The position numbers and the translations under genes were made by a program. Below, in pieces: positions 16,169-18,909 of a stretch of DNA of 32,000 nucleotides. Every line of letters begins with the position of its first letter. Position 1 is the stretch's first letter. The stretch lies in the NCBI GenBank assembly GCA_005191425.1, contig SUPR01000002.1, positions 30,001 through 62,000 of the forward strand. Direction: 5' to 3'. Source of the stretch: Candidatus Helarchaeota ASGARD archaeon Hel_GB_B. Its GTDB lineage: Archaea; Asgardarchaeota; Lokiarchaeia; Helarchaeales; HEL-GB-B. The notes under the pieces were generated by a model. The model was not told the DNA's origin and ran no database searches. It saw nothing but the letters and a program-made list of their open reading frames with translations.

Positions 16169-17425
16169 TTAAATTATATTTTTAATAAAAGTTATCTCTC
16201 TTCTATCTAATTCATAAAATTTTTTTAAATATTCGCTTTGGGGAGATCTCTTCTTAAGAATTAAGGCAATAAATGGAAGATGTTTTGTGATAATTTCCTC
16301 AGGACTACTCTTTAACTTCTTTCTAATTTTATTTACAATGTTCATTAATTCCCCTGATCTTGATGCATACATTTTATTTAAGAAATTACTGGGCGAATAC
16401 CTAAAATATTGAACAAAATGGGACTTATTCTCGTTTTTAATTGGTAGTGAAACGCCTGAAGAAATTATATCTATAAAATATGGTAGCATTGACCATGATA
16501 TTTTCTCTGGATTGCTTGCAATTGCGTTATAAATTAAATCAGCTTTTGATAATGCTTTATATGACTTAAATAGCGTTCGCGAGGAAACTTTATGATATGG
16601 GAGAATTTCATTTACCCAATGTAAAAGTAGTCCCCAATCAATGTCTAGCATTGAAACTGCTCTATTACATGTTTGAATATCTTTATTTTTAAATATTATA
16701 TTTAAAACTTCAAATATATTTTTCTCAGTATCTCTTACTTGCTGAATCTTTCTTACATCTGACAATGTTAATTTTTTCTTACCTTCACAAACTGCTTGGA
16801 GGTCATTTATTGCAGACCGCAAATCATTATTTACATTAATTGCAATTTCAGTAAGCGCTTTTGGATCGGCTTGTATTTTTTCGGCAATGCAAATTTTCTG
16901 AAGTACCTTTACTATAGTTGGATTTTTTATTTTTTGAAATTTTACGATTTTTATCCCGCTTCTTTTATCTCTTAATGACCTGAACTTTTTGTCATGTACA
17001 TTGTTAGCTGTAAAAATAATTGGAAATTTCGATAATTTAACCATCTTTAACATGGCTGATAATCCCCCCCTATCTTGATTCCCACTTAATCCATCAACCT
17101 CATCTATTAAATATAATTTATTTACTCCCTTTTTAATAGTCCGTGTAGCCAGACTTGGAATAAGTTTTTCTTCAATGCTTTTTTTATTTCTAACATCACT
17201 AGCATTTATTTCAATAACATCAAACCTATTAAGCTTAGCTAATACATTAGTAGATGAGGTCTTTCCACATCCCGGAGGTCCTAATAATAATAGTGCTTTA
17301 ATTTCGTTTTTACTTGACCATTTTGTTAAAAATTCTTTTATAACCTTAACAGCATTAGGATTTCCTACTATATCTGATTCTTTTTTGGGTGCATATTTTA
17401 TTGTCCATAATTCCTTTTCAAGCAT
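16169..17425 (-). CDS. rfcL: Replication factor C large subunit
   Basis: [44 protein letters not shown]; directly downstream of the RFC small subunit. Confidence 0.95.
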   Translation of the reverse strand: MLEKELWTIKYAPKKESDIVGNPNAVKVIKEFLTKWSSKNEIKALLLLGPPGCGKTSSTNVLAKLNRFDVIEINASDVRNKKSIEEKLIPSLATRTIKKGVNKLYLIDEVDGLSGNQDRGGLSAMLKMVKLSKFPIIFTANNVHDKKFRSLRDKRSGIKIVKFQKIKNPTIVKVLQKICIAEKIQADPKALTEIAINVNNDLRSAINDLQAVCEGKKKLTLSDVRKIQQVRDTEKNIFEVLNIIFKNKDIQTCNRAVSMLDIDWGLLLHWVNEILPYHKVSSRTLFKSYKALSKADLIYNAIASNPEKISWSMLPYFIDIISSGVSLPIKNENKSHFVQYFRYSPSNFLNKMYASRSGELMNIVNKIRKKLKSSPEEIITKHLPFIALILKKRSPQSEYLKKFYELDRREITFIKNII

Positions 17426-17440
17426 TATAATTATCGCCTT

Positions 17441-18502
17441 TTAATCTTTAATTCCAAGAGTAGCAAGATATGTTAAGAAAAATGAAAGTTGTAATTCATT
17501 ATTAGATGGAACGCTAATATATGAATCGAATTTTGATATTTCTATAGAAATTTTCTTCTTTAATTCTTCTGTAATAGTTGATTCCATTAAAAATTTATTA
17601 AAAGCTTTTAATATCATTTTTCCTGATAAACTTTTTTTAATAAATAGATTTCTTAAAAAATTCCGCGCATCAACTATATTACCACTTATAGCTAATTTTA
17701 GACATTCCCCAATTTCTTTAATTTCTAGTTTCTTTATCATTTCATATATAAAATTTTCTGTAATTTTTTTCTTATAACAACTTGCTGCTTCTAATATATT
17801 AATTGCAATATTCATATCATTATTAGAATAATAATAAATCAATTTTAAAGCATTTTCAGTGATATTAATTTCCTCTGATTCGCATATATATTTAATTTTA
17901 CTTAAAAATTGTTTTTGACTTAATGGAAATAATTTTAAATTTACACATCTCGACCTAATTGGGTCTATTATATTTGAAACTGAATTTGCCACCAATATAA
18001 ATCTACATATCCTACTATATTTTTCCATAGTCCTCCTTAATGCCTGCTGTATTATTCTTTCTAATTTATCCGCTTCATAGATGATCAAGATTTTGTGGTC
18101 AGCAGAATCTAACGTTTTAGTTTTTGGATAGTTTCTGATAATTGTAAATAATATATCTATTCTACTTGGACTTTTAGACTTGCCGTGTCTTTTTAGACTT
18201 ATTTTGCTAGCCTCTACCCAATATGGCATGTATTCATAGTAGAAATTCTTACTATCTGAAGCAAAAATCTCTTCAATATTCGCTTTATATGTTGTTCCAT
18301 ATAAGTCATGCACCAAACTTGATACTATTGAGGTCTTTCCTTTAGGATGAAAATAACCTACATTTCAAATTCCCGGAGGACCATATAACAACAAGTTCGG
18401 TAAATTTCCGCTTTTTACATATTTTTTAATCTGATTTATTATATGTTCTTGTCCTATAATATTTTCTAATGTATCTGGACGGTATTTTTCTATCCATGAC
18501 AT
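17441..18502 (-). CDS. rfcS: Replication factor C small subunit (RFCS2-like). Two exons, 18502-18369 and 18341-17441; 344 aa after splicing
   Basis: Manual translation from ATG 18502 gives MSWIEKYRPDTLENIIGQEHII..NLPNLLLYGPPGI*NVGYFHPKGKTS. The ORF track shows only the downstream part. Removing 27 nt restores GPPGIGKT. The rest contains ASD, QQALRRTMEKY and IRSRC motifs. Confidence 0.93.
18342..18368 (-). other. Candidate BHB (tRNA-type) intron in RFC small-subunit mRNA, 27 nt: UUGAAAUGUAGGUUAUUUUCAUCCUAA
   Basis: Exon stem GGUC-C-UCC/GGA-AA-GACC; central 4-bp helix GGGA/UCCU; 3-nt bulges AU^U and AA^A; intron stem UGAAA/UUUCA with a 10-nt loop; contains an in-frame UGA. Confidence 0.88.
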
Positions 18503-18909
18503 TTTTTTTACCAAATATATTTATACCTATTTCATTATAAAAAATTATTAAATTATAAAATTTAAATTATCTCCAGTTAAAATAATTTATTTTAAGATTC
18601 CTTTACTTACTAAATTTGATTTGATTATTTATTCGTATAAAAATATTTTTTCTTGGTTAAATATGTCCTTTAAATAAATTTTTTCTTGAATTATCAATCT
18701 TAAATTTTAGCGATCATTATAATTTATGTGTTTAAAAGTTCTTTTTCTTTTACTCCATTAAATTTGTAGTTATAATTAAATTTAAAAATGATAAAAAGAG
18801 AAATTTATAAATATTTTATTGTCAATTATGATACGAAATAATAAGGACATTTTTCACATCATTTTAATTTATAATGATTTAATTAGTAATCTGAGAGGCG
18901 AAAAAAAAT

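What the first reader, a model, noticed from the sequence alone, without database searches (positions are those of the whole stretch)
18317..18502. Candidate tRNA-type (bulge-helix-bulge) intron splitting the Walker A motif of the RFC small-subunit gene
Seen in sequence: the gene starts at 18502 (MSWIEKYRP..) and reads GGT CCT CCG GGA ATT TGA AAT GTA GGT TAT TTT CAT CCT AAA GGA AAG ACC, i.e. GPPGI*NVGYFHPKGKT. The RNA folds into all BHB parts in the right order: exon stem GGUC/GACC plus UCC/GGA, a 4-bp central helix GGGA/UCCU, two 3-nt bulges on opposite strands (AUU, AAA) and an intron stem UGAAA/UUUCA. Cleaving after the second base of each bulge, the known EndA rule, removes exactly 27 nt (18342-18368) and joins AU+A = Ile, giving GPPGIGKT. 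Established knowledge: archaeal EndA cuts BHB motifs and RtcB ligates; the well-documented protein-coding case is cbf5 in some Crenarchaeota. Inference: this is mRNA splicing of a DNA-replication gene in a probable Asgard archaeon. I know of no description of it but cannot search. Standard gene callers report a truncated gene lacking its P-loop, so such introns would be systematically hidden.
Basis: partly seen in the sequence, partly recalled or inferred. Interest (0 to 1): 0.96.

Follow-up and report, generated by a model that had tools for sequence, protein, structure and literature searches.

The report
tRNA-type intron splitting RFC P-loop
A 27-base insert with the exact RNA shape that the archaeal tRNA-splicing enzyme cuts interrupts the ATP-binding motif of a DNA-replication clamp-loader gene in an Asgard archaeon, so the mRNA almost certainly has to be spliced, and standard annotation hides the gene as two fragments.

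Summary
Observation confirmed; interpretation supported by comparison, but no RNA data exist. On the minus strand, 18368-18342 is a 27-nt insert with an in-frame TGA between GPPG and GKT of an RFC small-subunit gene. Its minimum-energy fold is a canonical h-B-H-B-h' motif. Cutting after the second bulge base gives GPPGIGKT. Five more orthologue variants carry 24, 25, 28, 33 and 33-nt inserts at the same codon. Two of these shift the frame, and the same rule repairs every one. A different Asgard family has 28-31-nt inserts at the same codon of the canonical RFC-S paralogue. Across all 11 sequences the stems covary (score 0.43 against 0.15 when shuffled, 0/500). Exon 1 is under purifying selection. 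Independent assemblies carry the insert. The genome encodes two EndA subunits and RtcB. Its only other RFC-S copy is also interrupted (30 nt), as are dnaG (37 nt) and an acyl-CoA dehydrogenase (31 nt). A genome-wide census shows such introns are few, not hundreds. Published precedent is essentially cbf5 in Crenarchaeota; I found no report for Asgard or replication genes. Earlier notes of this scan flagged the same stretch and the three other genes.

The parts
18369..18502 (-). Exon 1 of the RFC small-subunit gene: ATG 18502-18500 through GPPG plus the first two bases (AU) of the Ile codon.
   Evidence: Pfam Rad17 P-loop hit. dN/dS 0.05-0.25 with dS>1 across six intron-bearing orthologues.
18342..18368 (-). 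27-nt BHB intron (U UGAAA UGUAGGUUAU UUUCA UCCU AA). It holds the in-frame TGA at 18367-18365.
   Evidence: The same-site inserts in relatives are 24-33 nt.
17441..18341 (-). Exon 2: third base of the Ile codon, then GKT...; Walker B (IIYEAD), SRC motif, Rep_fac_C domain; stop at 17443-17441.
   Evidence: Pfam AAA, Rep_fac_C and AAA_lid_RFC1.
18371..18374 (-). 5' strand of the 4-bp central helix H (GGGA, exon). It pairs with UCCU at 18347-18344 (intron).
   Evidence: MFE fold. 93% of cells paired across 11 sequences, 2 of 4 pairs with compensatory changes.
18344..18347 (-). 3' strand of the central helix H' (UCCU, intron).
18368..18370 (-). 5' bulge AUU. Predicted cut between U18369 and U18368.
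   Evidence: The cut rule is validated empirically by frame and motif repair in 11 RFC sequences and 3 other genes.
18341..18343 (-). 3' bulge AAA. Predicted cut between A18342 and A18341.
   Evidence: Same as for the 5' bulge.
18348..18367 (-). Intron hairpin h': UGAAA (18367-18363), 10-nt loop, UUUCA (18352-18348).
   Evidence: 98% paired, 4 of 4 pairs with compensatory double changes across 11 sequences.
18375..18382 (-). 5' strands of the exon helices: GGUC (18382-18379) and UCC (18377-18375). They pair with GACC (18335-18332) and GGA (18340-18338).
   Evidence: CC/GG pairs are invariant in 11 of 11 sequences. These bases are the Gly-Pro-Pro and Gly-Lys-Thr codons themselves.
18332..18340 (-). 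3' strands of the exon helices (GGA, then GACC) within the GKT codons.
16169..17425 (-). RFC large-subunit gene, 15 nt downstream of the small-subunit stop; probably co-transcribed (context).
   Evidence: Pfam AAA, Rad17 and RFC lid domains. Same gene order in all relatives.

Best explanation
This is a genuine bulge-helix-bulge (tRNA-type) intron in a protein-coding mRNA. The rfcS pre-mRNA folds locally so that the Pro-Gly codons (GGGA) pair with intron bases (UCCU) to form the 4-bp central helix. Two 3-nt bulges flank it, an intron hairpin lies on one side, and an exon-exon helix made from the Pro and Gly codons lies on the other. The two-subunit splicing endonuclease EndA cuts after the second base of each bulge, and RtcB joins the exons. 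The result is an mRNA encoding a 344-residue RFC small subunit with an intact Walker A motif, GPPGIGKT. Unspliced RNA can only yield a 45-residue peptide ending at the intron's TGA. Shown here: the structure, its conservation through covariation, exact frame and motif repair, presence in DNA of independent samples, presence of the enzymes, and absence of an uninterrupted copy. Inferred: that cleavage and ligation occur in vivo at those bonds. The intron need not have a function. It most likely persists because this lineage's EndA handles many non-canonical introns, and because the P-loop codons (CCN CCN GGN ... GGN AAR ACC) are self-complementary and supply the exon half of the motif.
For: Fold: the MFE structure equals the canonical hBHBh' motif. 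Six distinct intron variants sit at the same codon of the orthologous gene: 27, 24, 28, 33, 33 and 25 nt. The 25- and 28-nt variants shift the frame, and all are repaired to GPPG[IT]G[KR]T by one cut rule. RNAalifold recovers the motif, with 5 of 15 pairs showing compensatory changes. Five more variants (30, 30, 30, 28, 31 nt) lie at the same codon of the canonical RFC-S in another Asgard family, all giving GPPGTGKT. Joint test on 11 sequences: 86% of cells paired against 71% shuffled; covariation 0.428 against 0.146 (0 of 500 shuffles); slid registers at most 0.13; intron stem 98% paired with 4 of 4 compensatory pairs. Exon 1 has dN/dS 0.05-0.25 with saturated dS. The insert is identical in three assemblies, including a strain with 4 SNPs elsewhere in the gene, and in a contig of another run. 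Two EndA-family genes and RtcB are present, and Asgard EndA is reported as the broad-specificity (alpha-beta)2 type (PMC5829648). Only three RFC hits exist in the genome, and the other small subunit is also BHB-interrupted. The same rule repairs dnaG and an acyl-CoA dehydrogenase whose 8 orthologues are uninterrupted and colinear with the spliced product. A tRNA-Ala in this window has a 58-nt BHB intron at 59/60. Of 78 diverse archaeal RFC-S genes, 74 have a contiguous Walker A.
Against: There is no RNA evidence: no spliced junction, excised intron or peptide has been seen. The folding energy of the single sequence is not better than shuffles (z = -0.40). The exon helix next to the central helix is only 2-3 bp. 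One orthologue (G001) has an A.G mismatch in the central helix, and L124 has a U.C mismatch at the first intron-stem pair, so some substrates are relaxed BHBs. In family f28 a register slipped by 1 nt is equally foldable but breaks the frame, so structure alone does not always fix the cut sites. This RFC paralogue tolerates degenerate P-loops in some lineages (GPNGSGRL in G003, GPPGTGRT in L121), so an intact Walker A may not be strictly required. The genome is 93.7% complete, so an unassembled intact copy cannot be fully excluded.
Confidence: 0.9

Rival explanations
1. Pseudogene: a 27-nt insertion inactivated the gene, and the hairpin-like fold is incidental.
For: There is an in-frame stop. 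Folding energy is not exceptional. Some orthologues have degenerate P-loops.
Against: Both exons are under purifying selection (58-62% identity across exon 2). Eleven different inserts all keep the BHB through compensatory changes and are all repaired by one rule. No uninterrupted RFC-S was found in the assembly. The Walker B, SRC and C-terminal domains are intact.
Confidence: 0.03
2. Translational recoding: TGA read-through or selenocysteine, or ribosomal bypass from GGA (18373-18371) to GGA (18340-18338), yields the protein without RNA splicing.
For: In G000 the insert is in frame, has a single TGA, and lies between two GGA codons.
Against: Read-through would place 9 residues inside the P-loop. 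Inserts of 25, 28 and 31 nt shift the frame, and others contain TAA. Bypass would give GPPGKT, which is not a Walker A. The take-off and landing codons do not match in G004, G006 or f28 (GGU/GGG, GGG/GGC).
Confidence: 0.02
3. Split gene: the 45-aa and roughly 295-aa products are made separately and assemble without a covalent join.
For: Gene callers predict two ORFs.
Against: The break lies inside the GxxxxGKT loop. Exon 2 has no start codon at GKT: the first usable start, TTG at 18316, removes GKT. There is no room for a promoter or ribosome-binding site in 27 nt. This model does not explain the conserved BHB geometry.
Confidence: 0.02
4. Assembly or sequencing artefact.
For: The source is a metagenome-assembled genome (182 contigs).
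Against: The insert is identical in at least three assemblies from different samples, including a strain variant, and in a contig of a separate run with no gap. Homologous inserts occur in at least 10 other genomes.
Confidence: 0.01

Closest known systems
cbf5 pre-mRNA intron of Crenarchaeota (Aeropyrum, Sulfolobales, Desulfurococcales; Watanabe 2002; Yokobori 2009, PMC2738675)
   Same: It is a short BHB intron inside a protein-coding gene, removed by the tRNA-splicing endonuclease of the two-subunit type. It has a patchy distribution of gain and loss, and was mis-annotated as two ORFs or a frameshift.
   Different: The gene (RFC clamp loader, not a pseudouridine synthase) and the lineage (Asgard, not Crenarchaeota) differ. 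cbf5 itself is uninterrupted in this genome. Here at least four genes per genome are affected, and the same codon is occupied in two paralogues of two distant families. cbf5 splicing was shown experimentally; this one was not. PMC2738675 states that no archaeal pre-mRNA splicing was confirmed for genes other than cbf5.
Non-canonical BHB introns of archaeal tRNA genes, including the heavily interrupted tRNAs of Asgard archaea (bioRxiv 10.64898/2026.10.13.758758)
   Same: The motif, the enzymes and the size range (14-58 nt) are the same. Part of the motif must be supplied by exon sequence. Repeated gains occur at sites able to form the motif. This window's own tRNA-Ala has a 59/60 intron.
   Different: The host RNA is an mRNA, so splicing competes with translation and must restore a reading frame. 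The preprint does not mention mRNA introns.
IRE1-dependent unconventional splicing of HAC1/XBP1 mRNA in eukaryotes (ligation by Trl1 or RtcB)
   Same: It is spliceosome-independent, protein-catalysed excision of a short intron from an mRNA at stem-loop sites, followed by tRNA-ligase joining. In XBP1 the excision changes the reading frame.
   Different: The endonuclease (IRE1, not EndA) and the recognition motif differ, and that system is a regulated stress switch. No evidence of regulation exists here.
Inteins in the P-loop and other conserved motifs of archaeal RFC, MCM and PolB
   Same: An intervening element sits inside the most conserved motif of a replication protein. A Nanohalobium RFC-S has an intein-like insert at GK|T, and this genome's MCM and PolB carry in-frame intein-like inserts.
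   Different: Inteins are large, in-frame, and removed from the protein. This element is 24-33 nt, sometimes shifts the frame, and must be removed from the RNA.

Membership tests
Archaeal BHB intron (EndA-cut, RtcB-joined) | [quoted passage not shown] | tested here: met
   MFE and centroid fold. RNAalifold consensus. Central helix 93% paired across 11 sequences.
Archaeal BHB intron (EndA-cut, RtcB-joined) | Flanking helices h (exon-exon) and h' (intron) | tested here: met
   h is UCC/GGA plus GGUC/GACC; h' is UGAAA/UUUCA. h' is 98% paired with 4 of 4 compensatory pairs, and the CC/GG pairs of h are invariant. h is short (2-3 bp).
Archaeal BHB intron (EndA-cut, RtcB-joined) | Cutting after the second base of each bulge yields a functional mature RNA | tested here: met
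   It restores GPPG[IT]G[KR]T in 11 of 11 RFC sequences, including four whose inserts shift the frame. The same rule repairs rfcS-2, dnaG and ACAD.
Archaeal BHB intron (EndA-cut, RtcB-joined) | Structure maintained by compensatory substitutions | tested here: met
   Covariation 0.428 against 0.146 shuffled (0 of 500); slid registers at most 0.13.
Archaeal BHB intron (EndA-cut, RtcB-joined) | Host encodes the splicing endonuclease and the RtcB ligase | tested here: met
   PF01974 hits twice (192- and 198-aa ORFs) and PF01139 once.
Archaeal BHB intron (EndA-cut, RtcB-joined) | Spliced RNA junction or excised (circular) intron observed | not testable with these tools
   No RNA run was listed for this locus.
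RFC small subunit (AAA+ clamp loader) | N-terminal RFC box, Walker A, Walker B, SRC arginine finger and Rep_fac_C domain | tested here: met
   WIEKYRP, GPPG|IGKT (after splicing), IIYEAD and SRC are read. Pfam AAA, Rep_fac_C and AAA_lid_RFC1 match. It is a divergent paralogue: the Pfam scores are modest, and it is 35% identical to the canonical copy.
cbf5-type archaeal pre-mRNA intron | The intron lies in the cbf5 gene | tested here: not met
   The TruB_N match is continuous within a 333-aa open frame. The resemblance is in mechanism only.
Intein | A large in-frame insert with protein-splicing junctions | tested here: not met
   The insert is 24-33 nt, contains stop codons, and in four variants is not a multiple of 3.
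Group I / group II self-splicing intron | A ribozyme core of hundreds of nucleotides | tested here: not met
   The insert is 27 nt. Rfam finds only a tRNA in the window.
Programmed translational bypass or read-through | Matching take-off and landing codons, or a recodable stop, giving a functional product | tested here: not met
   The codons do not match in G004, G006 or f28, some variants shift the frame, and the bypass product GPPGKT lacks a Walker A.

The most novel reading that the evidence does not exclude
Splicing by EndA/RtcB is an obligatory and possibly regulatory gate on the replisome of these Asgard archaea. Both RFC small subunits and DnaG can only be made from spliced mRNA, so replication capacity would be coupled to the activity of the tRNA-maturation machinery, in the way HAC1/XBP1 depends on IRE1. 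In addition, the P-loop codons act as a recurrent 'proto-splice site', at which BHB introns were gained independently in two RFC paralogues of two distant Asgard families. That would be a prokaryotic example of site-specific mRNA intron gain in the closest relatives of eukaryotes.
Probability: 0.15. Interest if true: 0.92.

Novelty: new member of a known kind. Interest (0 to 1): 0.8.

Why it matters
Archaeal mRNA splicing by the tRNA endonuclease has essentially one confirmed example, cbf5 in Crenarchaeota. Here the same mechanism is needed to make core replication proteins (both RFC small subunits and DnaG) and a metabolic enzyme in Asgard archaea, the closest prokaryotic relatives of eukaryotes. 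This matters for four reasons. (1) Cells without a nucleus tolerate introns inside essential mRNAs, which raises the question of how translation of unspliced RNA is avoided. (2) It gives comparative material on intron gain: an insert specific to one species (ACAD), gain and loss at family level, and the same codon occupied in two paralogues. (3) It exposes a systematic annotation error. These genes appear in public databases as truncated 'hypothetical proteins' or short RFC fragments, which distorts gene-content and phylogenomic analyses of Asgard genomes. (4) It predicts specific substrates for biochemical work on Asgard EndA and RtcB.

Tried and rejected
RNA evidence: the look-up of sequencing runs with kind any and kind rna listed no RNA holder, so nothing can be said about expression. 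Read laying on four DNA runs laid only one contig (X2), which covers the region without a gap; the other three gave nothing.

Genome-wide census: 286,565 loose BHB patterns were found. I tested ORF fusion under the correct cut against cuts shifted by 1-2 nt, adding thermodynamic and codon-usage filters. There was no bulk enrichment of the correct cut (for example 19 against 12-16 at ddG <= 4), because hairpins at ordinary gene boundaries dominate. The method recovered rfcS, rfcS-2 and ACAD as the three lowest-ddG hits, but ranked dnaG low because of a register slip in an A-run. The other listed candidates looked like adjacent genes (for example a PurE C-terminus followed by a new N-terminus; MGKILRV... 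after the junction). Two runs timed out.

The search for related loci with the orthologue alignment reached only generic archaeal RFC-S. I used it as a negative control instead. ARAGORN is of no use on this genome (0 tRNAs in the window, 6 in 3.5 Mb). Two orthologue DNAs (P0003, P0006) could not be fetched.

Mobility: blastn-short of the four introns found no related copies.

Considered and rejected: TGA=Sec or read-through, ribosomal bypass, split protein, intein, group I/II intron, pseudogene and assembly error (see the rival explanations).

Full report
**1. What is in the sequence.**
On the minus strand an ORF starts at ATG 18502 and reads MSWIEKYRP...LLLYGPPGI, then TGA (18367-18365). Nine codons further on, the same frame continues GKTSIVS... 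for 299 residues, to a stop at 17443-17441. Pfam sees a Rad17/RFC-type P-loop N-terminus in the first piece. In the second piece it sees AAA, AAA_lid_RFC1 and Rep_fac_C. The RFC large subunit follows 15 nt downstream.

The 63-nt RNA around the break folds, as both MFE and centroid, into:
- an outer helix GGUC/GACC;
- an exon helix UCC/GGA;
- a 4-bp helix GGGA/UCCU;
- two 3-nt bulges (AUU, AAA) on opposite strands;
- a 5-bp intron stem UGAAA/UUUCA.

The strand order is h-H-B-h' on the 5' side and h'-H'-B-h on the 3' side, as in pre-tRNA. Cutting after the second bulge base removes 18368-18342 (27 nt) and creates ATA, giving GPPGIGKT. The energy alone is not significant (z = -0.40), so I looked for the decisive evidence elsewhere.

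**2. Provenance.**
The window is contig C107 of a 3.54-Mb, 182-contig assembly, 93.7% complete, with about 28% G+C. The closest homologues of the gene (58-62% identity) are labelled Ca. Helarchaeota and Ca. Lokiarchaeota, so this is an Asgard archaeon. DNA runs holding the locus come from hydrothermal-vent and marine-sediment metagenomes.

**3. Not an artefact.**
The locus was assembled independently in NCBI, JGI and ENA records. The 27-nt insert is identical in three of them. Two of those three differ from the window at 4 positions elsewhere in the gene, so they are another strain. A contig from a separate run covers the region without any gap. Every public gene call splits the gene into a 45-50-aa ORF plus a 281-314-aa ORF, named 'hypothetical protein' where a name exists.

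**4. Comparative test in orthologues.**
The divergent RFC-S orthogroup is confined to the window's order: 6 of 7 species genomes, out of 400 genomes searched in the phylum. Two families carry an insert at exactly the same codon, and metagenomic relatives add more.

| Source | Insert length | Spliced P-loop | Note |
|---|---|---|---|
| G000 | 27 nt | GPPGIGKT | this window |
| G001 / L122 | 24 nt | GPPGIGKT | same genus; A.G mismatch in H |
| L121 | 28 nt | GPPGTGRT | shifts the frame |
| L124 | 33 nt | GPPGTGKT | U.C mismatch at first h' pair |
| G006 | 33 nt | GPPGTGKT | contains TAA |
| G004 | 25 nt | GPPGTGKT | shifts the frame |

These are read. In the two frame-shifting cases the reading frames upstream and downstream differ by exactly the amount that excision corrects. 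The third family (G003, G005) has no insert.

RNAalifold on the six sequences returns the full hBHBh' consensus, with 5 of 15 pairs showing compensatory double changes. The 42 exon-1 codons from W to GPPG have dN/dS of 0.05-0.25 with dS above 1. Exon 1 is therefore translated in frame in all lineages, which makes no sense for a free 45-residue peptide or a dead gene.

**5. The same codon in another paralogue and another family.**
In family f28 (5 of 5 genomes) the canonical RFC-S has inserts of 30, 30, 30, 28 and 31 nt at the same P-loop codon. Their central helix is (U/G)GGG/CC(C/U)A, with bulges ACA and AAA/AAU. All splice to GPPGTGKT, and again two of them shift the frame.

Its nearest metagenomic relatives (83-95% identity, ten clusters) are all called as truncated 228-292-aa proteins. 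Homologues at 62-65% identity (Freyr-, Jord-, Sigyn- and Baldrarchaeia labels) are full length.

One caveat applies: a register slipped by 1 nt folds equally well in f28 but breaks the frame.

MAFFT aligns all 11 sequences in one register. Counting an explicit structure on that alignment gives:
- 86% of cells paired, against 71% in shuffles (0 of 500 shuffles reach it);
- a covariation score of 0.428, against 0.146 +/- 0.028 (0 of 500);
- slid controls of at most 0.13;
- the central helix 93% paired;
- the intron stem 98% paired, with compensatory changes at all four pairs.

The exon half of the motif is made by the P-loop codons themselves (CCN CCN GGN ... GGN AAR ACC). This offers a simple reason why the site is occupied twice (inference).

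**6. Other interrupted genes in the same genome.**
The only other RFC-S copy (C131) reads WVEKYRPRK***...SLSEIINQ. The fold is AGGC CACG [AAA] 8-bp stem CGUG [AUC] GCUU (z = -2.9). Excising 30 nt gives EKYRPRTLSEIINQ. G001 has a 29-nt, frame-shifting insert at the same site. G004 and G006 have no insert there and are colinear with the predicted spliced product.

An acyl-CoA dehydrogenase (C38:4933-4963, 31 nt) is repaired to RDAKMA|EIYEGTSEIQR. Exon 1 covers only positions 1-130 of the 150-position Acyl-CoA_dh_1 domain. Eight orthologues, including G001 at 88% identity, are uninterrupted and colinear. Ten independent contigs encode the same truncated product. On this sample the intron looks like a recent gain.

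dnaG (C29:783-819, 37 nt; GUAG [AAA] 9-bp stem CUAU [AUA]) is repaired to DGIVE|RPDVVGA.

The census shows no bulk excess of correct-cut fusions over shifted-cut controls. Such introns therefore number a handful per genome, not hundreds.

cbf5 and PCNA are uninterrupted. MCM and one PolB carry in-frame intein-like inserts. The four introns share no sequence with each other or with other loci.

**7. Machinery and context.**
Two EndA-family ORFs (192 and 198 aa) and one RtcB are present. Asgard archaea are reported to have the (alpha-beta)2 EndA with the L1 loop that confers broad specificity (PMC5829648). ARAGORN finds only 6 tRNAs in the genome. The window's tRNA-Ala(UGC) has a 58-nt BHB intron at position 59/60. 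A 2026 preprint describes heavily interrupted Asgard tRNA genes, but not mRNA introns.

**8. Rivals.**
- Pseudogene: contradicted by selection on both exons, by covariation, and by the lack of an intact copy.
- Read-through or selenocysteine: contradicted by the frame-shifting variants and by TAA in some inserts.
- Ribosomal bypass: it would give GPPGKT, and the take-off and landing codons do not match in relatives.
- Split protein: exon 2 has no start at GKT, and this model does not explain the structure.
- Assembly error: excluded by the independent assemblies.

**9. Comparison and novelty.**
Mechanistically this is the same kind of element as the cbf5 intron of Crenarchaeota. PMC2738675 states that splicing was not confirmed for any other archaeal protein gene. 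Five full-text searches found no report of BHB introns in Asgard protein genes or in RFC or DnaG; the library is incomplete.

I classify it as a new member of a known kind. Its unusual features are: essential replisome genes, several genes per genome, recurrent occupation of one codon, and the Asgard lineage.

**10. Verdict.**
The missing piece is direct RNA or biochemical evidence.

Noticed in passing
G000 contig C131, L002:1268-1297 (+): The second (canonical) RFC small-subunit gene of the same genome has a 30-nt BHB insert after EKYRPR. G001 has a 29-nt, frame-shifting insert at the same site, while G004 and G006 have none there. As a result, no RFC-S gene in this assembly is uninterrupted.
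   Followed up: yes
G000 contig C38:4933-4963 (-), L130:1934-1964: A 31-nt BHB insert lies near the 3' end of an acyl-CoA dehydrogenase gene and is specific to this species among 9 orthologues. The flanks form an imperfect direct repeat (AUGGCCGAAAU / AUGGCUAAAAU) around a palindromic GGCC central helix, which hints at an origin by local duplication.
   Followed up: partly
G000 contig C29:783-819 (-): A 37-nt BHB insert in dnaG breaks DGIVE|RPDVVGA. The MFE fold prefers a register slipped by 1 nt within an A-run. I did not examine orthologues.
   Followed up: partly
L153, L154, L157, L159, L164 (genomes G304-G308, family f28): The canonical RFC-S of a different Asgard family carries 28-31-nt BHB inserts at the same P-loop codon. 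Two foldable registers exist, and only one restores the frame.
   Followed up: yes
window 6782-6653 (-): tRNA-Ala(UGC), with G3:U70, is interrupted by a 58-nt BHB intron (6723-6666) in the T-loop at position 59/60. ARAGORN misses it, and Rfam aligns only part of it.
   Followed up: partly
whole genome G000: ARAGORN finds only 6 tRNA genes in 3.5 Mb. This fits tRNA genes so heavily interrupted that standard finders fail.
   Followed up: no
G000 C108:21291-24944 (-) and C4:171-2462 (-): MCM (1681-aa open frame, domain in three in-frame pieces) and one family-B DNA polymerase (1269-aa frame, domain in two pieces) look intein-bearing. Replication genes in this genome therefore carry both protein-level and RNA-level intervening elements.
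   Followed up: no
L007 (G003), L006 (G005), L121: This divergent RFC-S paralogue has degenerate Walker A motifs in some lineages: GPNGSGRL, GPPGSGKM, and GPPGTGRT after splicing. It may be a partly non-catalytic clamp-loader subunit.
   Followed up: no
L066, L077, L102 (other archaea): Three of 78 diverse archaeal RFC-S genes have intein-like inserts (...HN|T/S junctions). One of them, in a Nanohalobium MAG, lies at the P-loop GK|T, the same motif that hosts the BHB intron here.
   Followed up: no
window 18520-18530 (-): A TATA-like box (TATAAATA) lies about 20-25 nt upstream of the exon-1 ATG. This suggests a leaderless or short-leader transcript that starts before exon 1.
   Followed up: no
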